Positions 1-49,530 of a stretch of 49,530 nucleotides of DNA are shown here, piece by piece. Under the pieces are notes generated by a model. The model was given only the letters and a program-made list of their open reading frames with translations. It did not search any database and was not told where the DNA came from. The stretch lies in the sequence record NC_049825.1; one strand, given 5' to 3'. Numbering within the stretch: the stretch's first letter is position 1; each line of letters starts with the position of its first letter. The translations under genes and the position numbers were made by a program. Source of the DNA: Escherichia phage grams.

Positions 1-325
1 ATAGCGTCCAGCGGTCGCCAGCTTCATCAAAAACATAACCAGCAACAGCACCAAGCGCTCTTCCTTGCTCAATCTGGTAACGCTTTCCTTCTTTGAAATG
101 CTTTTTGCACGGGATTTTGTGATCTACAAATGTGCATTTAATTGTTTTTGTCTTGATATGACGATAGTCAGACTCAACAGCGTTTTGCCACTTACTACCC
201 TTTGCAATGCTCTTTACCTGGAATTGTTCCAACTCGATCACATCATAGCTACCAGCAATTTTTTCGTATACAGCTTTATAACGACCGTTCATCAAAACGT
301 TGGTTTTATTGCAGATAACTTTCAT
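1..325 (-). CDS. hypothetical protein, N-terminal part; gene runs off the left edge
   Basis: ATG at 325..323 preceded by RBS AGGAGAAATAAACG (minus strand); open frame to position 1 (108 codons, MKVICNKTNVLMNGRYKAVYEK...); frame is continuous with the C-terminal fragment at 49470..49530. Confidence 0.5.
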   Translation of the reverse strand, partial: MKVICNKTNVLMNGRYKAVYEKIAGSYDVIELEQFQVKSIAKGSKWQNAVESDYRHIKTKTIKCTFVDHKIPCKKHFKEGKRYQIEQGRALGAVAGYVFDEAGDRWTL

Positions 326-356: not shown

Positions 357-402
357 ATTATGCCAGGCTTTTACACCTGGCTTTTAACAAAAAGTGCTAT
401 TT
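357..402 (-). promoter_or_regulatory. conserved 22-bp element plus -10 (CATAAT), leftward
   Basis: AAATAGCACTTTTTGTTAAAAG-N18-CATAAT on minus strand; spacer CCAGGTGTAAAAGCCTGG is a hairpin-forming dyad; stop codon of methyltransferase gene lies inside element. Confidence 0.55.
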
Positions 403-1107
403 TGCGTTAGATTCAAAGACTGCGCGAGCAAAACCGCGCGGGGTGAGGGAGCGGATCATCTTTGTGCGCGATGATTTTCCGCCAGTTTTGGCCCAGCCTG
501 GATTATCTTTGTCGTCCTCTTTCGGCAGTATTAAAGCGCGCGGAGGAATAACAAAGCCGTTGCCAGTCCAAAGACATGTTTTCTTAAAGTAGCGATCCCG
601 CGCCGGAATGATATCAGGGAAGTCGGGATGTTTATCATCTTCCGGTAAATATCCGGCGTAATCGCACGGATGGAACGTGTAATCAGGCTTACGCCATAAC
701 GTTGACAGCTTGCCTACAGGATTCTCTATCATGTAAGGAACACCGAAATAATCAGCGATATGCGCGGCTATTTTGCAAGTGTCGGCGGCCTCATTTTGGA
801 AGTTAGGATTTTCCATGCGCTTTTTAGCCCAATGGCGAGATCCGCTGTTTGCTAATTGTGTGCAAGGTGGGAAGGCCATAATGAAATCAGGTTTACCCCA
901 ATTTTCAAGTTTTGCGTTATATTTGAATAGATCATCAATCCACACATTAACGTAAAAAATATTATCATGGATTATGCGCACTGAGTGGTAATCTCCGTGA
1001 TCGGCATCATCGTAATTAAAGCAAATGCATTTATAACCAGCATCAGCCCAATCTTTAACAGCCTTACCAGATCCATCAAACAAAGAGAAAATTAAACCTT
1101 TATACAT
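397..1107 (-). CDS. DNA (cytosine-5)-methyltransferase
   Basis: 236 aa; motif I FSLFDGSGK, catalytic PC motif FPPCTQ, ENV motif MIENPVG in canonical order; RBS GAGGTGA upstream. Confidence 0.75.
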   Translation of the reverse strand: MYKGLIFSLFDGSGKAVKDWADAGYKCICFNYDDADHGDYHSVRIIHDNIFYVNVWIDDLFKYNAKLENWGKPDFIMAFPPCTQLANSGSRHWAKKRMENPNFQNEAADTCKIAAHIADYFGVPYMIENPVGKLSTLWRKPDYTFHPCDYAGYLPEDDKHPDFPDIIPARDRYFKKTCLWTGNGFVIPPRALILPKEDDKDNPGWAKTGGKSSRTKMIRSLTPRGFARAVFESNAK

Positions 1108-1116
1108 TTCATCACC

Positions 1117-1341
1117 TCAAAACGGAAAGCATCGCGCACAGTTAGGATCAAAATTGCAGCCGCAATCATTGACAATCATCGTTGGATCTGCAAATGCAGC
1201 GCCGCATTCATGATCCATATCCATATCACCCAGCGCATCATCAAGCGTCCTGATCTTATATGCAACTTCAAGCGCTGCCTCTTTATTTAATCCTGCATCT
1301 TCAGCCATTTGCAGGCGCTCAAAAAATCCGTCCTGACTCAT
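1117..1341 (-). CDS. hypothetical small Cys-rich protein (74 aa)
   Basis: ORF with C-terminal Cys cluster (HECG...NDCGCNFDPNCARC); start ATG overlaps stop of upstream small ORF (ATGA coupling). Confidence 0.5.
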   Translation of the reverse strand: MSQDGFFERLQMAEDAGLNKEAALEVAYKIRTLDDALGDMDMDHECGAAFADPTMIVNDCGCNFDPNCARCFPF

Positions 1342-1726: not shown

Positions 1727-1900
1727 TATTCAATCCTCATTATATTTAGTGTGGTAACTATGCCAATTTTGCGAAATATTGTTTAACAATTCGTGATATC
1801 AGTTGAAATAGCTATGGCGCTTTGCTCGCTTGTCGTCTCCGCCATAATGATCATTAGAAACTGCAATCATCCAGGCATTATGGAATATTATTAGCTTCAT

Positions 1901-2211: not shown

Positions 2212-2257
2212 AATATATCGGATCGCGAGGATTGAGTTTTAACAAAAAGTGCTATTT
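2212..2257 (-). promoter_or_regulatory. conserved 22-bp element plus -10 (TATATT), leftward
   Basis: AAATAGCACTTTTTGTTAAAAC-N18-TATATT on minus strand; 9-bp inverted repeat AATCCTCGC/GCGAGGATT flanks the -10. Confidence 0.55.
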
Positions 2258-3088: not shown

Positions 3089-3134
3089 ATTATGCCGAAT
3101 CCAGTCAGGCACGTTTTAACAAAAAGTGCTATTT
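3089..3134 (-). promoter_or_regulatory. conserved 22-bp element plus -10 (CATAAT), leftward
   Basis: Minus-strand reading AAATAGCACTTTTTGTTAAAAC-N18-CATAAT. Confidence 0.55.
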
Positions 3135-4275: not shown

Positions 4276-4319
4276 ATAGCACTTTTTGTCAAAAGTCAAA
4301 AACGATAACCAGGCATAAT
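4274..4319 (+). promoter_or_regulatory. conserved 22-bp element plus -10 (CATAAT)
   Basis: AAATAGCACTTTTTGTCAAAAG-N18-CATAAT; overlaps stop codon TAA of upstream gene. Confidence 0.55.
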
Positions 4320-5265: not shown

Positions 5266-5308
5266 ATAGCACGAATTGTTAAAACTCAAATGTGGGGCCA
5301 GGTATAAT
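5264..5308 (+). promoter_or_regulatory. conserved 22-bp element (GAATTG variant) plus -10 (TATAAT)
   Basis: AAATAGCACGAATTGTTAAAAC-N17-TATAAT; -10 flanked by near-dyad GTGGGGCC/GGCCTCAC. Confidence 0.55.
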
Positions 5309-6331: not shown

Positions 6332-6543
6332 TTGTGACGCACGATGTAGAGCCAGGCGCGAGCACTGCGCAGGACATGGTTTCCGGAATGACGCCAAAAT
6401 CGCACAGAATGGTACGCGTGCGCGGTTATAGCTTCAATGTCTCCCAAACACTCAAGGAGATCTTGGCCTTGCCAGAAGTAGATACAGCTCTTGTGGGTGT
6501 GCATACAAACGAATATGTTTCTTTCCACATTGTGACGAAATAG
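6328..6543 (+). CDS. hypothetical protein (71 aa)
   Basis: ORF; ATGA overlap with upstream gene. Confidence 0.5.
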   Translation: MIVTHDVEPGASTAQDMVSGMTPKSHRMVRVRGYSFNVSQTLKEILALPEVDTALVGVHTNEYVSFHIVTK

Positions 6544-6583
6544 CACTTTTTGTTAAAATAGCTTAACGGGCTTGCTGTATAGT
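6538..6583 (+). promoter_or_regulatory. conserved 22-bp element plus -10 (TATAGT)
   Basis: AAATAGCACTTTTTGTTAAAAT-N18-TATAGT; stop TAG of upstream gene inside element. Confidence 0.55.
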
Positions 6584-9208: not shown

Positions 9209-9251
9209 TAGCACTTTTTGTTAAAACTTCCGCGAGGGCATTTGTTAAAGT
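9206..9251 (+). promoter_or_regulatory. conserved 22-bp element plus -10-like TAAAGT
   Basis: TAATAGCACTTTTTGTTAAAAC-N18-TAAAGT (preceded by TG); stop TAA inside element. Confidence 0.5.
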
Positions 9252-17665: not shown

Positions 17666-17687
17666 CGTTTAACAAAAAATGCTATCA
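17666..17687 (-). promoter_or_regulatory. conserved element in orientation opposite to flanking late genes
   Basis: Plus strand reads GTTTAACAAAAAATGCTATCA; no well-spaced -10 on minus strand. Confidence 0.35.
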
Positions 17688-21401: not shown

Positions 21402-21447
21402 ATGCTACACGATTCATAATCAATTCTTTTAACAAAAAGTGCTATCA
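21402..21447 (-). promoter_or_regulatory. conserved element plus -10 (TAGCAT) pointing leftward, antisense to late genes
   Basis: Minus-strand reading TGATAGCACTTTTTGTTAAAAG-N18-TAGCAT. Confidence 0.4.
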
Positions 21448-32222: not shown

Positions 32223-32267
32223 ACTATACACGATCTTACAGCAGGCGTTTAGCAAAAAGTGCTATTC
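32223..32267 (-). promoter_or_regulatory. conserved 22-bp element plus -10 (TATAGT), leftward
   Basis: GAATAGCACTTTTTGCTAAACG-N17-TATAGT on minus strand, upstream of lipoprotein gene. Confidence 0.5.
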
Positions 32268-32692
32268 TGTTCTTTTTGTTCTCCTGCGTTCTCAAATCTG
32301 CGGAGGCGTAAATTTAGAGCAAAAAGTGAGCAATAACAGAGCGCGATATATACAGATAAATATATATACATACATATAAATCAATAAGTTAGTAGTATAT
32401 ATATTAATGTTTGTTCTTTATTGTTATCTGTGTTTTGTGTGATTTTGTGTGCCTGGTGATTTTTCTGTGATTATGCATGTGTCAGTGGTTATGTGTGTCT
32501 ATATATCTATATCCGGCGCAAATTGAGGAACAAGAGAACAAAAAGACAACAAAGATATTTATCAATCACTTACATGTAAGTTTTGTTATCTAAGTTGGCG
32601 AGAACGTTGTTAAAACAGAAAAAACAAAATAACTATTGACTAAACGCATCAAATAGCTACAATGCAGGCATACCAACCAATGAGGGTAAATC
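32268..32692. repeat. AT-rich non-coding region B (diverged paralogue of 3135..3786)
   Basis: Shares AATCAATAAGTTAGT, GGTGATTTTT, TTTTGTTATCT and GTTGTTAAAAC blocks with region A. Confidence 0.6.
32636..32663 (+). promoter_or_regulatory. canonical sigma70 promoter (candidate early promoter)
   Basis: TTGACT-N16-TACAAT about 30 bp upstream of ATG 32693. Confidence 0.6.
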
Positions 32693-38796: not shown

Positions 38797-39729
38797 TTAG
38801 AGAAGTGATTCAGGCTTGAAAACCTTCCTCTCTATCCCTTGCCTGTAATTATCATTAATCGGCATCATAATTTCAAGTCCTCTTTCCTCGGCAGCAATGA
38901 TCGCGTCACGATCTGTGCTCTTACAGACAACTCGCATTCTTCTGTTGCCTTTATACCTGTAAGCTACAATCTCAATGTTAGTTGCATCAAAGCAGGCCCA
39001 AACCTCCTGACCAGTTGCAAGGTGAATATGTTGCGCATCAATCCAGTCAACGCAAAGATAGATAGTCTTATCTGTACTTCCGGTTCTAACAATCGACCCT
39101 CGCGTGTAGTCCTTTGCTAGAAAAGACTGATTACCTTCTTCATCAATGAAAAGCACATTGCACATTTCATCATCAATTTCATCTGAATGTACCAGGTAAC
39201 ATGGTAACGCGTGAATGTATCGACCATCTTTAACGCCGCATTCATAATAACCATCTTCAGGAGGATATATCCCTTCATAGGTGCTTAGCGGCGTGCGATC
39301 AAATTTTAGTGTTTTTGACATAACGCGCTCGCAGCATTCATGGCTTGCCTGTTTCCCGAACGAATAACCAGAATCACGAGATACTCGCTTATTTGCCTTG
39401 ATCCTATAGTCCTGCGGAACTTTTCCAAGAAATCGGCCCAAAATATTGATCACTTCGCTGTAAGGTTCTCCGGTTAGCTTCATGATCCAACCAATTCCGG
39501 TATCATTACCGCACACGTTGCAGATCGCACCGCCATCGCCTTTTTTATCGCCAAGTTTATCCGTCCATCTGAAGCGATCCTTTCCGCCGCAGTTGGGGCA
39601 AGATTGATGCTTGCCGTTAAAAACTTCATTTGGAAGACCGCAAATACTTTGTAGCGCCTCACGCCACAATCCTTGCATATATGGGAGAACATCTTCCTTT
39701 TGATAAACCATAAAGTTTTCGTTATTCAT
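38797..39729 (-). CDS. DNA primase (zinc-finger type)
   Basis: ATG at 39729 with RBS GAGGTG; [12 protein letters not shown]...CNVCG zinc-binding motif. Confidence 0.6.
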
Positions 39730-40268: not shown

Positions 40269-40314
40269 CAATAGCATTTTTTGTTAAACGATGATTTAAT
40301 GATTGTGTATTATA
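40269..40314 (+). promoter_or_regulatory. conserved element (variant) plus -10 (TATTAT) for helicase operon
   Basis: CAATAGCATTTTTTGTTAAACG-N17-TATTAT. Confidence 0.5.
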
Positions 40315-40336
40315 CACGCCAAATGGCATTACTCAA
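40309..40336 (-). promoter_or_regulatory. sigma70 promoter for regulator/primase operon
   Basis: Minus strand TTGAGT-N16-TATAAT with TG extension; -10 lies in near-palindrome GTGTATTATACAC. Confidence 0.5.
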
Positions 40337-40346
40337 AGGTTTTAGA

Positions 40347-42392
40347 ATGATTCCAAACATTGAAAAGCAAATATCAGCACTTGGTGAAGCGGTAATTAAA
40401 TCCATTCAGGAGCGATTCACTGTTGGCGAGATTGTGCCTTACCCTTACCAGTGCGTTGCATACGCTGAGATCGCAAAGCGCATGAAAAATTATGAGCATC
40501 CATTCTTTGTTAAAGCGTCCGTATCGGCTGGAAAAACATTGATGTTTGCAATGGTTGCTCACCAGTGCCGGAAAATGGGCTTGAAAATGATGGTCCTTGC
40601 TCGCCAGGCTGAGATTGTGGATCAGGATTCTGAAGAGATAACAAATCTTGGCGTGCCGAACTCCATCTATTGTGCAGGACTGAAGACAAAAAGCGCATAC
40701 TTTCCGATCGTTGTTGGTTCTGAGGGAACTGTAGTTAATGGACTGTTTAAAGCGCTTGGCGACTATGTTCCGCACGTTATCGGGATTGACGAGTGTCACC
40801 AGGTGGATTGGGAAGACCTTGCCGACGCCATAGAGAAAGACGAGTCATTTTTACAAATGACGACGAAGAAAGGCGAAAAAGTACCAAATCCAGATTATGA
40901 CATAACAAAGGGAAGCAGGAACAGAAATACAGAGTTCCTGATTGGTGAGGATGGCTTGCCAATGGAGGGAACAGGCCGCACGCAATACACTGTCATTATC
41001 ATGGAAATGATGCGACGTTGCAGGAAAGCATACGGTCATGAACTGCGCATCTTTGGTATGACTGGATCGGAGTTTCGCGGCGTAGTTCCAATACTGGTAG
41101 AAGATAAAAAGCAGAAAGGATTTTGGCGTGAACAGGTTACTAATATTGACACCAACTACCTAATCAAGTTCGGTTCTGTTGTTCCGACTAATTTTGGCGA
41201 CGTTGGCGATCTCGGGTATGACCTTTCAGAGTTTGAGGCATCCAGTGAGGATGGCGTTGCAGACTTTGACGCTAAAACGCTTCGTAGGATGGAACAAAAA
41301 ATTCATGAAGAAGCGACCATGACAAAGCGCATCATGGCGAAAGTGCACGAGATCTGTAAAAACCGTAACGGTGTACTTGTGACATGTGCAGGCGAAAGGC
41401 ACTGTAAAGAGGCAGCGGCAGCATTGCCGCCTGGAACGACTTACAGGATCATTACTGGTAAGACTGGCGATAACCAGCGCAAGGAGTGGTTGAAAGAAGC
41501 ATACGAGGGAAAGGTTAAATACATCTTCCAGGTGCAGGCGCTAACTACTGGCGTTAACGTGCCGTTTTGGGATACGTCTGTTATTCTGCGTAAGATTGGA
41601 TCTCTTACGTTGCTGATTCAGCTTTTAGGTCGCGGAATGCGACTACTTAAGAAGTGGCATAAGGAGCAAGGATTCCAGAAGGATGATCATCTAGTCATGG
41701 ATTTTTCAGGAACGATGGACGAGCTAGGGGAGCTTTATTTTGATCCGATACTGGAACAGGCGCAGCACCAGAAGCGATTTAGGAACGGTAAAGATCCGAA
41801 GCCTTGTCCTGTTTGCGGAACTCTTAACAGCTATTATGCTCGTCGTTGTATGAACGTAGATGAAAACGGCAACAGATGCGAGTGGTTCTTTAAATTCAGG
41901 ACATGTGATGATCAGATTGACCCGCGCACTAAAAAGATTATTCATCGCGGTTGCGGAACGAAGAATGATATTGCGGCCAGGGTATGCAGACATTGCGACA
42001 TGTCATTGATTGACCCTAACGAGAAGTTAAGCGGAAAGCACTACACAAAAAACGACTGGTTCCAAGTGCAATCTTTCGCGGTTGACATGACGAAAAACCA
42101 GAAAGGGATAATATTTAATTATGAGCTTTCCGATGGCATAGATACTTTCAAGGCGAGAGAGATATTTTTCCCTGAATCTGAAAGCCAAATTTGTCGCGCA
42201 AAATGGCGAAGCGTTGCTCTTAAGCACATACCAGATCGCCGTGTCGCTGGCATGGTCGCGAGCTATCGTAATGCACGTAAAATCATGCAATATGTGAATC
42301 ACATTATGCCACCATCGCGTGTGACTCACCGCAAGACGAGCAAGGGCGAAGATAATTTGTACAAGAAGGAATTTAATTATGGCAATGACTGA
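40347..42392 (+). CDS. superfamily 2 DNA helicase with C-terminal zinc ribbon
   Basis: Walker A SVSAGKTL, DECH box IGIDECHQV, motif VI QLLGRGMR; CxxC pairs near C-terminus; start at 40347 chosen for SD. Confidence 0.75.
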   Translation: MIPNIEKQISALGEAVIKSIQERFTVGEIVPYPYQCVAYAEIAKRMKNYEHPFFVKASVSAGKTLMFAMVAHQCRKMGLKMMVLARQAEIVDQDSEEITNLGVPNSIYCAGLKTKSAYFPIVVGSEGTVVNGLFKALGDYVPHVIGIDECHQVDWEDLADAIEKDESFLQMTTKKGEKVPNPDYDITKGSRNRNTEFLIGEDGLPMEGTGRTQYTVIIMEMMRRCRKAYGHELRIFGMTGSEFRGVVPILVEDKKQKGFWREQVTNIDTNYLIKFGSVVPTNFGDVGDLGYDLSEFEASSEDGVADFDAKTLRRMEQKIHEEATMTKRIMAKVHEICKNRNGVLVTCAGERHCKEAAAALPPGTTYRIITGKTGDNQRKEWLKEAYEGKVKYIFQVQALTTGVNVPFWDTSVILRKIGSLTLLIQLLGRGMRLLKKWHKEQGFQKDDHLVMDFSGTMDELGELYFDPILEQAQHQKRFRNGKDPKPCPVCGTLNSYYARRCMNVDENGNRCEWFFKFRTCDDQIDPRTKKIIHRGCGTKNDIAARVCRHCDMSLIDPNEKLSGKHYTKNDWFQVQSFAVDMTKNQKGIIFNYELSDGIDTFKAREIFFPESESQICRAKWRSVALKHIPDRRVAGMVASYRNARKIMQYVNHIMPPSRVTHRKTSKGEDNLYKKEFNYGND

Positions 42393-42798
42393 TAAAGGCG
42401 ATTATCTGGAGTTTTACGAAAGAGATCCGACAGATACGCTAAAAGAGGAATCTCACCAGATCGGGGCGTTTCAATGGTTAACTTATGCTCATCCTGAATT
42501 ACTGGCATGGCATACGAAAAACGAGGGCGACAAGGGGATCGCCACCGCAATGATGGATCAGCAAGCTGGGCTTGTTAAGGGCGTAAGTGATTTTATCATC
42601 CTGATTGGATTAAAAGGTCGTTACCCGTTCGCGGCAATTGAGATGAAGCGCGTCAATAAGTCCGGCAAGGGTAAGGCTTCACCAGTCAGCAAGGACCAAA
42701 AAGCCTTCTTGCGTCGTGTGCGTGAGCTTGGCGGATTCGCTGCCGTAACATACGGATATAAGCAATTCATGATCGCGGTAGAATACATGATGAAATAG
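42379..42798 (+). CDS. VRR-NUC domain nuclease
   Basis: 139 aa; SDFIILIG...AIEMK block fits PD-(D/E)XK of VRR-NUC; overlaps helicase stop. Confidence 0.55.
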   Translation: MAMTDKGDYLEFYERDPTDTLKEESHQIGAFQWLTYAHPELLAWHTKNEGDKGIATAMMDQQAGLVKGVSDFIILIGLKGRYPFAAIEMKRVNKSGKGKASPVSKDQKAFLRRVRELGGFAAVTYGYKQFMIAVEYMMK

Positions 42799-42838
42799 CA
42801 CTTTTTGTTAAAACAGGCGCGAAGGATTGCGCCATAAT
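42793..42838 (+). promoter_or_regulatory. conserved 22-bp element plus -10 (CATAAT)
   Basis: AAATAGCACTTTTTGTTAAAAC-N18-CATAAT; spacer contains GGCGC...GCGCC dyad; stop TAG inside element. Confidence 0.55.
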
Positions 42839-42872: not shown

Positions 42873-43574
42873 ATGAGTAAAGAAACTGAAGTGACATTTG
42901 AACAAATAGAACGCGAAACATTCATTGGCAATGCTCTTGCTACTGGTGGTCATTACCAGGCTGTTAAACCAAATCAATATTTCAAAGTGACTGGCAACCG
43001 CTATAACGGCAGCAATACGCCGGACATTGTGCGCGATTTGTGGTCTACTCCGTATGAGCTTGTCGCATGGATGGAAAGTGAATACGGTGATTATGACATC
43101 GACGCGGCTGCAAGCAAAGAAAATGCTGTATGTGAAAAATTCTACAGCAAGGAAACAAATTGCTTAAAGCGTTGGTGGGGTAGTAACAAGCATATATGGC
43201 TTAATCCACCGTACAGCAATATTACGCCATTTGTTAAGAAGGCGATTGAGCAAATGGAGCACAACAACCAGATCGACATGCTGTTACCTTGCGACACATC
43301 AACAGGATGGTTTTATGAAGCGCAACAGCGCGCAGCGGAAATCATCTGGATCACTGGCGAAGTTTACCAGGAAGACGGAACAGAATATTCCCGCACAGGA
43401 CGCCTTGCGTTTACCTCTGCTCTTACAGGTAAACCAGTGCAGGGCAACAACAAAGGCAGCGTTATTTTCATCATGCGCGAACTAAAAGAAGGTGAGCAGC
43501 AGAAAACGCGATACGTTAAAATCAGCGACATTTGCCCTTCGGTGGCAGACCGTCGCGCACGGAAACGGAGCTAA
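42873..43574 (+). CDS. DNA N6-adenine methyltransferase (Dam-like)
   Basis: 233 aa; NPPY catalytic motif (WLNPPYSN); RBS AAGAAATG context. Confidence 0.7.
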   Translation: MSKETEVTFEQIERETFIGNALATGGHYQAVKPNQYFKVTGNRYNGSNTPDIVRDLWSTPYELVAWMESEYGDYDIDAAASKENAVCEKFYSKETNCLKRWWGSNKHIWLNPPYSNITPFVKKAIEQMEHNNQIDMLLPCDTSTGWFYEAQQRAAEIIWITGEVYQEDGTEYSRTGRLAFTSALTGKPVQGNNKGSVIFIMRELKEGEQQKTRYVKISDICPSVADRRARKRS

Positions 43575-43836: not shown

Positions 43837-43879
43837 TAGCACTTTTTGTTAAAACGCCCGGCCTTGTGTCGGGCATAAT
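43834..43879 (+). promoter_or_regulatory. conserved 22-bp element plus -10 (CATAAT)
   Basis: TAATAGCACTTTTTGTTAAAAC-N18-CATAAT; spacer GCCCG...CGGGC dyad; stop TAA inside element. Confidence 0.55.
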
Positions 43880-47043: not shown

Positions 47044-47089
47044 AATATACCCGATACGAGATCGGGTGTTTTAACAAAAAGTGCTATTC
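47044..47089 (-). promoter_or_regulatory. conserved 22-bp element plus -10 (TATATT), leftward
   Basis: GAATAGCACTTTTTGTTAAAAC-N18-TATATT; spacer CCCGAT...ATCGGG dyad. Confidence 0.55.
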
Positions 47090-49210: not shown

Positions 49211-49256
49211 ATAATACCGCACCAATGCTACCCGCATTTAACAAAAAATGCTATTT
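49211..49256 (-). promoter_or_regulatory. conserved element (variant) plus -10 (TATTAT), leftward
   Basis: AAATAGCATTTTTTGTTAAATG-N18-TATTAT; ATGCGG/CCGCAT dyad flanks spacer and -10. Confidence 0.5.
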
Positions 49257-49472
49257 TATCCGCTCTATGCTAACTAAGATTTTTTCTGGTTCCTTTGCAC
49301 TATGGCAATGCGCGGTTACAGAATCAACAAAATCAAAGTAAAGTGATTTGTGATATGAGAATCCAATCAGCCATCCAACCATTGTTTTCTTTATTGGCCT
49401 GACTATATCGCCAGGCTTAAAGGTTTTTGTTGCTGAATAAGTCACCTTATAGCGATATTCAGTCTTGATCAC
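49251..49472 (-). CDS. hypothetical protein (73 aa), GTG start
   Basis: GTG start overlapping stop of upstream fragment (GTGA); stop TAG inside conserved element. Confidence 0.4.
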   Translation of the reverse strand: MIKTEYRYKVTYSATKTFKPGDIVRPIKKTMVGWLIGFSYHKSLYFDFVDSVTAHCHSAKEPEKILVSIERIK

Positions 49473-49530
49473 TTATACATAGCCTCAAACAAATGGCAGC
49501 CACCAGCGGAAAATCCTACTTCTTCGCGGT
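49470..49530 (-). CDS. C-terminal fragment of gene entering from right edge (likely same gene as 1..325)
   Basis: Open frame ...REEVGFSAGGCHLFEAMYK stop; frame continuous with 1..325 if ends are joined. Confidence 0.4.

What the first reader, a model, noticed from the sequence alone, without database searches (positions are those of the whole stretch)
397..1107. Two orphan DNA methyltransferases of different classes
A C5-cytosine methyltransferase (397..1107; FxGxG, PC and ENV motifs) and an N6-adenine methyltransferase (42873..43574; NPPY motif) are both present, with no adjacent restriction endonuclease gene seen. Each has its own element-type promoter. Orphan phage methyltransferases commonly protect phage DNA from host restriction; carrying both classes suggests broad anti-restriction coverage.
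Basis: partly seen in the sequence, partly recalled or inferred. Interest (0 to 1): 0.45.

Follow-up and report, generated by a model that had tools for sequence, protein, structure and literature searches.

The report
Known phage Dam and mini-Dcm methyltransferases
This T1-like coliphage carries two stand-alone DNA methyltransferase genes, a Dam that marks GATC and a very small Dcm that marks CCWGG; both are real, but close relatives of both have already been annotated and tested, so the finding is ordinary.

Summary
Both genes are real and sit at the stated coordinates. The window is a complete, circularly permuted genome of a T1-like phage (Drexlerviridae, Hanrivervirus-like).

- **ORF 42873..43574 (plus strand, 233 aa).** It is a PF05869/TIGR01712 phage Dam, 67% identical to T1 Dam, which is experimentally GATC-specific.
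- **No restriction enzyme.** No PADLOC restriction-endonuclease model matched any of 75 predicted proteins. The VRR-NUC gene beside dam also occurs in phage Rtp, which has no dam.

- "ENV" is actually ENP.
- The repeated promoter-like element precedes dam but lies downstream of dcm.
- "Broad" anti-restriction coverage is overstated: only two motifs are covered.
- Published work also shows that phage Dcm and GATC Dam methylation trigger retron defences.

My own comparison adds modest support. Phages with dam keep GATC, and dam-less relatives deplete it.

Verdict: already known, low interest.

The parts
397..1107 (-). Mini Dcm-like C5-cytosine DNA methyltransferase gene (236 aa), orphan
1066..1080 (-). 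Motif I, FDGSG (residues 10-14), the presumed SAM-binding loop
   Evidence: Read from the sequence. It sits after strand 1 of the model. It is poorly conserved across the family.
862..867 (-). Motif IV, Pro81-Cys82, with the catalytic cysteine
   Evidence: C82 is invariant in 77 diverse homologues. It is the same residue mutated in K42 Dcm (C82A).
718..726 (-). Motif VI, Glu128-Asn129-Pro130 (ENP in place of the canonical ENV)
   Evidence: E128 and N129 are at least 90% conserved and P130 is invariant. E128 was mutated in K42 Dcm.
1113..1118 (-). Shine-Dalgarno GAGGTG of dcm, overlapping the stop codon of the upstream ORF 1117..1341
   Evidence: Read from the sequence. K42 escape mutants carry a base change 9 bp upstream of the dcm start. 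In this sequence that position falls in the GAGG. This mapping is an inference.
1739..1766 (-). Sigma-70-like promoter candidate (TTGGCA-16-TATAAT) upstream of the four-ORF leftward run that ends with dcm
   Evidence: 11 of 12 consensus matches. The total number of such sites is no higher than in shuffled sequence, so this is only a candidate.
382..399 (-). Copy of the T1-like direct repeat TAGCACTTTTTGTTAAAA. It overlaps the dcm stop codon and lies downstream of dcm
   Evidence: It is followed by a hairpin, CATAAT, and the next gene's start at 325.
42873..43574 (+). Dam-type N6-adenine DNA methyltransferase gene (233 aa), orphan
   Evidence: PF05869 at 2.9e-61. TIGR01712 at 1.2e-54, above its cutoff. 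PADLOC 'orphan methyltransferase' at 9.1e-104. 67% identical to T1 Dam YP_003925.1.
43203..43214 (+). Catalytic NPPY motif (residues 111-114)
   Evidence: Read from the sequence. It is conserved in the alignment with T1 Dam.
43095..43112 (+). DIDAAA (residues 75-80), the presumed SAM-binding motif of the phage Dam family
   Evidence: Read from the sequence. T1 Dam has DLDAAA at the aligned position. The functional assignment is an inference from general knowledge of the family.
42796..42838 (+). Direct-repeat element, a GC-rich hairpin and a CATAAT hexamer immediately upstream of dam
   Evidence: The matching hairpin in T1 is annotated as a rho-independent terminator.
42379..42798 (+). VRR-NUC nuclease-fold gene next to dam. 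It belongs to the helicase module and is not a cognate restriction enzyme
   Evidence: PF08774 at 1.1e-09. It overlaps the helicase stop by 14 nt. It has no PADLOC hit. Rtp keeps helicase plus VRR-NUC without any dam.

Best explanation
The phage encodes two stand-alone DNA methyltransferases that modify its own replicating DNA.

**Dam.** It lies in the replication module, after the helicase and VRR-NUC genes, and has its own upstream repeat element. It is an orthologue of T1 Dam and converts GATC to G(6mA)TC. The genome has 270 GATC sites.

**Mini-Dcm.** It is the last gene of a run of small leftward ORFs. It is a minimal C5-cytosine methyltransferase with a catalytic Cys82, an ENP motif and a very short stretch where the target-recognition domain normally sits. 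It is an orthologue of K42/KarlJaspers Dcm and most likely converts CCWGG to C(5mC)WGG. The genome has 116 CCWGG sites.

**Likely purpose.** Phage-encoded copies make methylation fast and complete on DNA that host Dam, and probably host Dcm, cannot keep up with. They also work in hosts that lack those enzymes. This shields those two motifs from methylation-sensitive restriction enzymes of the MboI/DpnII, EcoRII and CCNGG types. Other restriction sites are handled by avoiding the sites altogether.

**Cost.** These methylation activities are sensed by retron defences: Eco1/Ec86 for phage Dcm and Sen2 for GATC Dam methylation.

**Shown here:** gene integrity, family and fold membership, orthology, absence of a detectable cognate endonuclease, and motif statistics.

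**Shown by others on close relatives:** 5mC formation by K42 Dcm and GATC methylation by T1 Dam.

**Inferred:** the exact CCWGG specificity of this enzyme, and restriction evasion as the selected function.
For: **Identity**
- the window is 92-99% identical to Hanrivervirus genomes that annotate a 'Dcm-like C5 cytosine methyltransferase' and a 'Dam-like N6-adenine methyltransferase'.
- TLS already annotates dam and dcm at the same syntenic positions.

**Dcm**
- 96% identical to KarlJaspers Dcm, with the same length and the same C82, E128, K175 and K176.
- K42 Dcm gave high 5mC on Ec86 msDNA by LC-MS, and mutating the CCTGG site in the msDNA abolished defence. This was later published as Wang et al. 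2024, Cell Rep 43:114857.
- C82 is invariant and E128-N129-P130 nearly invariant in 77 homologues.

**Dam**
- for family membership, and 67% identity to T1 Dam.
- T1 Dam methylates GATC. T1 DNA from a dam-minus host is still DpnI-sensitive, and a deletion mutant loses this. Host Dam alone methylates T1 DNA only partly (PMC10470545).

**Orphan status**
- No restriction-enzyme model hit in 75 proteins.
- VRR-NUC persists in dam-less Rtp.

**Function**
- GATC O/E is 1.45 and CCWGG O/E is 1.79 here, while 17 of 64 six-base palindromes are absent.
- In 81 loci that contain this dam, GATC O/E is never below 0.67 (median 1.39). Dam-less Rtp has 0.41. Sixteen loci without dam in view are below 0.5.
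- The native-DNA, nanopore-only record of the 91%-identical phage 2019SD1 miscalls 40 of 40 CCWGG sites. Near-cognate 5-mers are conserved at control rates. This is consistent with virion DNA modified at exactly CCWGG.
Against: - No curated C5-methyltransferase model reaches threshold. PF00145 gives 11.6 bits against a 22-bit cutoff, there is no NCBIfam hit, and there is no PDB sequence hit.
- Motif I is not conserved across the family. This lineage has Asn31 where at least 90% of the family has Asp.
- CCWGG specificity of the phage enzyme was assumed from E. coli Dcm plus msDNA mutagenesis. It has not been mapped genome-wide.
- The 2019SD1 signal cannot separate host Dcm from phage Dcm.
- Comparative support for Dcm protecting CCWGG is weak. 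Carriers have a median O/E of 1.89, but the two non-carriers, T1 (1.17) and Rtp (1.22), are not depleted either.
- The BASEL study found no simple relation between these genes and restriction resistance.
- Deleting T1 dam lowers burst size by about 40% even without an RM system. This suggests a role beyond anti-restriction.
Confidence: 0.82

Rival explanations
1. The methyltransferases mainly serve the phage's own DNA metabolism. Full GATC methylation would prevent MutH nicking or SeqA binding of newly made DNA, or help replication and packaging. Restriction evasion would then be secondary.
For: Deleting T1 dam reduced burst size from about 52 to about 32 in a host with no added RM system. This happened even in a host with its own Dam, which methylated the phage DNA only partly (PMC10470545). 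dam sits inside the replication module after the helicase and VRR-NUC genes. BASEL found no simple link between these genes and restriction phenotypes.
Against: Dam-less relatives deplete GATC strongly: Rtp has 72 sites against about 175 expected, and Salmonella siphovirus loci have 3-6 against about 80. That is the signature of selection by GATC-cutting enzymes, not of a replication need. No comparable housekeeping role is known for CCWGG methylation. Rtp and T1 each do without one or both genes.
Confidence: 0.25
2. The mini-Dcm has a recognition sequence different from or broader than CCWGG (for example CCNGG or a shorter site). The label 'Dcm-like' would then mislead about what it protects.
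For: The protein is only 236 aa, and the stretch where C5-methyltransferases carry their target-recognition domain is very short. Its closest structural match is DNMT3, not a CCWGG enzyme. The published specificity was assumed from E. coli Dcm and from loss of defence after mutating the msDNA site. The authors also suspected that Dcm itself is toxic. CCSGG is almost absent from this genome: 3 sites against 51 expected.
Against: In the native-DNA nanopore record of 2019SD1, errors hit 40 of 40 CCWGG sites. CCWGC, GCWGG, ACWGG and CCWGT were conserved at control rates with 0-1 gaps. CCSGG depletion is lineage-specific and not tied to the gene: 28 of 46 carrier loci are depleted and 17 are not. 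CCWGG is retained or enriched in all 46 T1-like loci with an intact gene.
Confidence: 0.15
3. dam forms a restriction-modification-like unit with the adjacent VRR-NUC nuclease and the ResIII-type helicase, so it is not an orphan.
For: The gene order is helicase (PF04851 ResIII plus Helicase_C), then VRR-NUC (a PD-(D/E)xK-type nuclease fold), then dam. The helicase has weak PADLOC hits to type IV restriction helicase domains, E about 1e-6.
Against: Rtp keeps the helicase plus VRR-NUC pair with no dam at all. VRR-NUC overlaps the helicase stop by 14 nt, but a 74-nt spacer carrying the repeat element and a hairpin separates it from dam. T1 annotates that hairpin as a terminator. VRR-NUC has no hit to any PADLOC restriction model. 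A GATC-directed nuclease could not tell phage DNA from a Dam-positive host's DNA.
Confidence: 0.03
4. The 236-aa protein is not an active DNA methyltransferase. It could be a degenerate relic or an RNA-modifying enzyme like DNMT2.
For: It falls below threshold for every curated sequence model. The best PDB sequence hit to a methyltransferase is DNMT2 at E = 0.13. The motif II Asp is replaced by Asn31.
Against: The family has more than 2596 members, and 1221 representatives at 50% identity, all with an invariant catalytic Cys. It occurs in 1498 phage records. A close relative (K42, a KarlJaspers strain) made 5mC in DNA, and a catalytic-site mutant did not.
Confidence: 0.03

Closest known systems
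Dcm of phage K42 / KarlJaspers (Bas06), the trigger of retron Ec86/Eco1 (bioRxiv 10.1101/2023.08.16.553469; Wang et al. 2024, Cell Rep 43:114857)
   Same: The gene is 711 bp and the protein 236 aa, 96% identical to KarlJaspers Dcm. It has the same C82, E128, K175 and K176, the same position upstream of the DUF3987 helicase, and the same phage genus.
   Different: There are ten amino-acid differences. This allele has not been tested. Whether this phage is sensitive to retron Ec86 is unknown.
Phage T1 Dam (YP_003925.1, ST20)
   Same: 67% identity, the same PF05869/TIGR01712 family, the same NPPY motif, and the same position after the helicase and VRR-NUC genes. T1 Dam methylates GATC, and its deletion leaves GATC unmethylated.
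   Different: About one third of residues differ, and the N-terminal 15 residues do not align. Specificity here is inferred, not measured.
The dam plus dcm gene pair of phage TLS and other Tempevirinae
   Same: Both genes occur at the same syntenic positions. TLS dcm is 66% identical and TLS dam 67% identical to the window's genes. TLS also has the same repeat element and the same CCSGG avoidance.
   Different: It belongs to a different genus. TLS has an extra ORF between VRR-NUC and dam, and HNH genes nearby.
Canonical bacterial C5-methyltransferases (Pfam PF00145, e.g. M.HhaI and E. coli Dcm)
   Different: The protein is much shorter: 236 aa against 327 for M.HhaI. The usual target-recognition domain is absent or very short. 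The match to PF00145 is below threshold. Motif I is variable across the family, and the third motif is ENP rather than ENV.
Catalytic domains of DNMT3A and DNMT3B
   Different: Sequence identity is only 11-17%. These are eukaryotic CpG enzymes that work as oligomers with regulatory domains. Nothing here shows a shared oligomeric mechanism.

Membership tests
C5-cytosine DNA methyltransferase (Pfam PF00145 superfamily) | Sequence match to the curated family model above its gathering score | tested here: not met
   PF00145 gives E = 0.18 and 11.6 bits against a 22-bit cutoff, over the N-terminal 90 residues only. Only 8 of 77 family members match at all, best E = 0.0039. There is no NCBIfam hit.
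C5-cytosine DNA methyltransferase (Pfam PF00145 superfamily) | Catalytic-domain fold matching solved C5-methyltransferases better than other Rossmann-type folds | tested here: met
C5-cytosine DNA methyltransferase (Pfam PF00145 superfamily) | Motif IV Pro-Cys with the catalytic cysteine, and the motif VI glutamate (ENV) | tested here: met
   P81-C82 is present, and C82 is invariant in 77 homologues. E128 and N129 are at least 90% conserved and P130 is invariant, so the motif reads ENP.
C5-cytosine DNA methyltransferase (Pfam PF00145 superfamily) | Motif I FxGxG SAM-binding loop and the motif II acidic residue | tested here: inconclusive
   FDGSG is present in this protein, but the motif is not conserved across the family. 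Position 31 is Asn here, whereas at least 90% of the family has Asp.
C5-cytosine DNA methyltransferase (Pfam PF00145 superfamily) | SAM-dependent formation of 5-methylcytosine in DNA | not testable with these tools
   LC-MS showed this for K42 Dcm, the enzyme of a KarlJaspers strain, and a C82A/E128A/K175A/K176A mutant lost it. The window protein is 96% identical to KarlJaspers Dcm.
Phage mini-Dcm family (phrog_757; K42/KarlJaspers Dcm) | Full-length similarity, the same size and the same key residues as the tested member | tested here: met
   phrog_757 at 1.4e-85. 226 of 236 residues are identical to KarlJaspers Dcm, with no gaps. The gene sits at the syntenic position.
Phage mini-Dcm family (phrog_757; K42/KarlJaspers Dcm) | CCWGG target specificity | not testable with these tools
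   The evidence is indirect only. Errors confined to CCWGG appear in the native-DNA nanopore record of the related phage 2019SD1. CCWGG is retained in all 46 T1-like carrier loci. Host Dcm is not excluded as the source.
Phage Dam N6-adenine methyltransferase (PF05869 / TIGR01712) | Match above the curated cutoffs | tested here: met
   PF05869 scores 206.5 bits against a 28.1 cutoff. TIGR01712 (an equivalog model) scores 184.3 bits against 97.05.
Phage Dam N6-adenine methyltransferase (PF05869 / TIGR01712) | Catalytic (D/N)PPY motif | tested here: met
   NPPY lies at residues 111-114 and is conserved with T1 Dam.
Phage Dam N6-adenine methyltransferase (PF05869 / TIGR01712) | GATC specificity | not testable with these tools
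   It has been shown for T1 Dam, which is 67% identical. GATC is retained here (270 sites, O/E 1.45) and depleted in dam-less Rtp (0.41).
Type II restriction-modification system | A cognate restriction endonuclease encoded next to the methyltransferase | tested here: not met
   No restriction-endonuclease model hit in 75 proteins of the complete genome. The neighbours of dcm are small ORFs of unknown function. The VRR-NUC gene next to dam occurs without dam in Rtp.

The most novel reading that the evidence does not exclude
The mini-Dcm and the near-total absence of CCSGG may be two halves of one strategy against CCNGG-cutting restriction enzymes of enterobacteria (the SsoII, Ecl18kI and StyD4I types) and against EcoRII. 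The W half of CCNGG would be kept and methylated: 116 CCWGG sites, O/E 1.79. The S half would be removed by mutation: 3 CCSGG sites against 51 expected here, and 0 in TLS despite 113 CCGG sites. If so, the phage would resist these enzymes completely, and a dcm deletion would restore sensitivity. A related open point is how a 236-aa enzyme with almost no recognition domain reads a 5-bp site.
Probability: 0.3. Interest if true: 0.4.

Novelty: already known. Interest (0 to 1): 0.2.

Why it matters
The finding adds little new knowledge. The dam plus dcm pair is annotated in TLS, in the BASEL phages and in many other T1-like phage records. T1 Dam and K42 Dcm have been tested experimentally.

It matters in practice for three reasons:
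- It predicts which restriction systems this phage can ignore, namely GATC- and CCWGG-sensitive ones only.
- It predicts sensitivity to retron Eco1/Ec86, which is native to E. coli BL21.
- It warns that native-DNA nanopore assemblies of such phages can be corrupted at every CCWGG site, as the public 2019SD1 record shows.

The comparative motif statistics give modest new support that phage Dam is tied to retention of GATC. They also expose a sharp, lineage-specific purge of CCSGG that remains unexplained.

Tried and rejected
**Sequence-only assignment of the 236-aa protein**
- Pfam, NCBIfam and a PDB phmmer search gave nothing.
- A 77-sequence profile gave only a sub-threshold DNMT2 hit at E = 0.13. 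The class call rests on the fold and on the tested orthologue.

**'Disrupted dcm goes with purged CCWGG'**
- Two T1-like loci (L134, and L136, which is Shigella phage 2019SD1) seemed to show a broken dcm and 0-1 CCWGG sites against about 28-30 expected.
- I rejected this as an assembly artefact. At 2019SD1, 0 of 40 orthologous CCWGG sites are conserved, and 18 carry 1-2 nt gaps.
- Near-cognate 5-mers are conserved at control rates.
- The genome was sequenced only by ONT R9.4 on native DNA, with Albacore and Canu.

**CCSGG depletion caused by carrying the gene**
- Rejected. 17 of 46 carrier loci are not depleted.

**VRR-NUC or the helicase as a cognate restriction enzyme**
- Rejected.

**Technical dead ends**
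- Alignment A1 was too diverse for the search for related loci, so I used A2.
- A literature search for 'T1 Dam GATC' found nothing. The evidence came from PMC10470545 instead.
- The dcm status of two helicase-anchored loci (L123, L129) could not be settled, because the contig ends cut the region.
Full report
**What the window is.** The 49,530-bp window is 92-99% identical to T1-like phages of the family Drexlerviridae. The closest are Hanrivervirus genomes: JakobBernoulli, KarlJaspers, herni, damhaus and Fulano1. An ORF that starts at 325 on the minus strand reads through the start of the window into its end. It gives a 128-aa protein, the same size as the homologous gene in JakobBernoulli. 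The window is therefore a complete, circularly permuted genome. In the circular genome the two methyltransferase genes are only about 6-7 kb apart, as in JakobBernoulli, where dam is at 32289 and dcm at 39038.

**Checking the observation.**
- Both ORFs have exactly the stated coordinates.
- ORF 397..1107 lies on the minus strand and encodes 236 aa.
- ORF 42873..43574 (+) encodes 233 aa with NPPY at residues 111-114.
- The cytosine-methyltransferase call is not trivial. Pfam and NCBIfam give no hit at threshold: PF00145 scores E = 0.18 and 11.6 bits against a 22-bit cutoff.
- The PDB sequence search finds nothing for the single protein. A 77-sequence profile reaches only DNMT2 at E = 0.13.
- PHROGs does recognise it: phrog_757 'DNA methyltransferase' at 1.4e-85.
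- The family is large: more than 2596 close homologues, 1221 representatives at 50% identity, and 1498 phage records across several phage groups.

**Fold test.**
- An AlphaFold model built from 77 diverse homologues is confident, with pLDDT 93.3 and pTM 0.91.
- Foldseek agrees.
- C82 is invariant, and E128, N129 and P130 are at least 90% conserved or invariant, in 77 homologues.
- Motif I is not conserved across the family. This lineage also has Asn31 where most members have Asp.
- The protein is a genuine but minimal and divergent C5-methyltransferase, with very little room for a target-recognition domain.

**Experimental anchor for Dcm.**
- The protein is 96% identical (226 of 236, no gaps) to the 'Dcm-like C5 cytosine methyltransferase' of KarlJaspers.
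- A preprint, later published as Wang et al. 2024, Cell Rep 43:114857, studied phage K42, a KarlJaspers strain with a 711-bp dcm.
- Four escape mutants of retron Ec86 all hit dcm. Two carry a base change 9 bp upstream of the start, which maps to the GAGG of the Shine-Dalgarno sequence in this window (this mapping is my inference).
- Expressing Dcm was toxic only when the retron was present.
- LC-MS showed high 5mC on msDNA with Dcm, but not with the C82A/E128A/K175A/K176A mutant. The residue numbers match this window.
- Mutating the CCTGG site of the msDNA abolished defence.
- The CCWGG specificity was taken from E. coli Dcm and was not mapped genome-wide.

**Dam.**
- The protein matches PF05869 (2.9e-61), the equivalog model TIGR01712 (1.2e-54) and the PADLOC 'orphan methyltransferase' model (9.1e-104).
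- It is 100% identical to the damhaus protein and 67% identical to T1 Dam YP_003925.1, which sits at the same syntenic position.
- T1 DNA from a dam-minus host remains DpnI-sensitive.
- A CRISPR-made T1 dam deletion grown on that host becomes MboI-sensitive.
- Host Dam alone methylates the deletion mutant's DNA only partly.
- The deletion lowers burst size by about 40% (PMC10470545).

**Are they orphans?**
- A PADLOC scan of 75 predicted proteins found no restriction-endonuclease model. It found only the Dam and weak helicase-domain hits.
- That gene overlaps the stop of the upstream ResIII/Helicase_C helicase by 14 nt.
- It is separated from dam by a 74-nt spacer that carries the repeat element and a hairpin. 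T1 annotates that hairpin as a terminator.
- Phage Rtp keeps the helicase plus VRR-NUC pair but has neither dam nor dcm. VRR-NUC therefore belongs to the helicase module.
- T1 has dam and VRR-NUC but no dcm: the best tblastn hit has E = 0.28.

**Promoters.**
It has 15 copies at up to 3 mismatches, against 0.14 expected by chance.
- Each copy is oriented with the downstream gene. In most copies a -10-like hexamer follows about 19 nt later.
- The repeat is already described for TLS as a 21-nt direct repeat, aaATAGCACnnnTTGnTAAAA. It is also reported in T1, Rtp and Rogue1, with unknown function.
- One copy precedes dam at 42796..42813.
- The copy near dcm at 382..399 (-) overlaps the dcm stop codon and serves the next gene.
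- dcm follows the previous ORF after 10 nt. The nearest upstream promoter-like sites on its strand are at 1766..1739 (11 of 12 matches) and the repeat at 2237..2254.

**Does the function fit anti-restriction?**
- The genome avoids palindromes strongly. Seventeen of 64 six-base palindromes are absent, against 3.5% of non-palindromic hexamers.
- GATC (270 sites, O/E 1.45) and CCWGG (116 sites, O/E 1.79) are plentiful.
- O/E relative to base composition, across named genomes:

| Phage | dam | dcm | GATC | CCWGG | CCSGG |
|---|---|---|---|---|---|
| Window | + | + | 1.45 | 1.79 | 0.06 |
| JakobBernoulli | + | + | 1.51 | 1.75 | 0.10 |
| TLS | + | + | 1.52 | 1.97 | 0.00 |
| T1 | + | - | 1.26 | 1.17 | 1.09 |
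| Rtp | - | - | 0.41 | 1.22 | 0.70 |

- I then analysed 131 IMG/VR loci. The 81 loci that contain this dam have GATC O/E of at least 0.67, with a median of 1.39.
- Sixteen loci without dam in view fall below 0.5. Among them, Salmonella siphovirus-type loci have 3-6 GATC sites against about 80 expected.
- This supports Dam as protection for GATC.
- The contrast is weak for Dcm. All 46 T1-like loci with an intact gene have CCWGG O/E of at least 1.0 (median 1.89), but the two non-carriers are not depleted either.
- The BASEL authors found most Drexlerviridae very sensitive to RM systems. They found no simple link to these genes. 'Broad coverage' is therefore not supported.
- Published work also shows the cost of these activities. 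Phage Dcm triggers retron Eco1/Ec86, and GATC Dam methylation (tested with E. coli, Salmonella and phage P1 Dam) triggers retron Sen2.

**A trap that I checked.**
- Two loci seemed to pair a broken dcm with purged CCWGG: L134, and L136, which is Shigella phage 2019SD1.
- Aligned to the window, 2019SD1 conserves 0 of 40 CCWGG sites, and 18 of them carry 1-2 nt gaps. The sites read CCGGG, CCGTG or CC-GG instead.
- CCWGC, GCWGG, ACWGG, CCWGT, GATC and TGCA are 61-80% conserved there, with 0-4 gaps each.
- That genome was sequenced only by ONT R9.4 on native DNA, with Albacore 2.3.1 and Canu (PMC8590004).
- Systematic basecalling errors at Dcm-methylated sites are a known artefact; I rely on my own knowledge for that point. 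So the 'purge' and the 'broken' genes are artefacts.
- As a side benefit, the record indicates that the virion DNA of a 91%-identical phage was modified at exactly CCWGG. Host Dcm and phage Dcm cannot be separated by this evidence.

**Unexplained remainder.**
- CCSGG is the most depleted of 48 five-base palindromic motifs in this genome (3 sites against 51 expected). CCWGG is among the most enriched.
- The depletion is bimodal among T1-like carriers: 28 of 46 loci are below 0.15 and 17 are at or above 0.5. It is therefore lineage-specific and not caused by the gene.
- One possibility is that the phage methylates the W half of CCNGG and purges the S half, as a defence against CCNGG-cutting enzymes. 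This is speculative.

**Verdict.** Both genes belong to known, experimentally anchored families. Novelty: already known. Interest: low.

Noticed in passing
window 382-399(-), 2237-2254(-), 3114-3131(-), 4277-4294(+), 5267-5284(+), 6541-6558(+), 9209-9226(+), 17667-17684(-), 21427-21444(-), 32247-32264(-), 40272-40289(+), 42796-42813(+), 43837-43854(+), 47069-47086(-), 49236-49253(-): There are fifteen copies of the repeat TAGCACTTTTTGTTAAAA, against 0.14 expected by chance. Each points toward the downstream gene. In most copies a -10-like hexamer follows about 19 nt later, and the repeat's own TAG is often the stop codon of the preceding gene. The distance from its TTGTTA to the hexamer (22 nt in the three copies measured) is too long for a standard sigma-70 promoter. 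The same repeat is described for phage TLS with unknown function (PMC11447400).
   Followed up: partly
whole window; compared with L002 (T1), L003, L004 (TLS), L005 (Rtp) and 46 T1-like IMG/VR loci: CCSGG is almost absent: 3 sites against 51 expected from composition and 12.8 from a Markov model. TLS has 0 CCSGG although it has 113 CCGG sites. CCWGG, by contrast, is enriched. T1 and Rtp are not depleted. Among carriers of the mini-Dcm the depletion is bimodal (28 of 46 loci depleted, 17 not). This suggests selection by a CCSGG- or CCNGG-cutting enzyme in some host ranges.
   Followed up: partly
L136/L137 (Shigella phage 2019SD1, NC_049820.1) and L134 (IMGVR_UViG_2974785742_000001): These public records are corrupted at CCWGG. 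In 2019SD1, all 40 alignable sites are miscalled and 18 carry 1-2 nt deletions. This fragments genes, including dcm, and dam aligns in three pieces. 2019SD1 was assembled from native-DNA ONT R9.4 reads only. L134 shows the same pattern (0 of 18 sites conserved), but the alignment is only 78% identical overall. The artefact mimics restriction-site purging and pseudogenes.
   Followed up: yes
window 1-325(-) joined to 49469-49530(-): An ORF reads through the window junction and gives a 128-aa protein of the same size as its JakobBernoulli homologue. The window is therefore a complete, circularly permuted genome, and dcm and dam are only about 6-7 kb apart on the circle.
   Followed up: yes
L005 (Rtp) and loci L027-L036, L077, L078: Relatives with no T1-type dam in view deplete GATC strongly. 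Rtp has 72 sites against about 175 expected. Salmonella siphovirus-type loci (contigs of roughly 35-45 kb) have 3-6 against about 80 expected, although they carry the mini-Dcm. For the 20-kb loci, a dam elsewhere in the genome was not excluded.
   Followed up: partly
window 1015-1017(-), residue Asn31 of the mini-Dcm: At least 90% of the family has Asp at this position, at the end of strand 2. By general knowledge of these enzymes it is probably the motif II acidic residue that binds the SAM ribose. This lineage, including the experimentally active K42 enzyme's close relatives, has Asn.
   Followed up: no
L123 (IMGVR_UViG_3300048920_000084): This metagenomic T1-like contig has almost no CCWGG (1 site against 19 expected) and no CCSGG (0 against 17), while GATC is enriched. 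Its dcm region is cut off by the contig end. It could be a true CCNGG purge or another artefact.
   Followed up: no
window 42379-42798(+) and 40281-42392(+): The VRR-NUC gene overlaps the end of the ResIII/Helicase_C helicase gene by 14 nt. The pair is conserved in T1, TLS and Rtp whether or not dam is present.
   Followed up: partly
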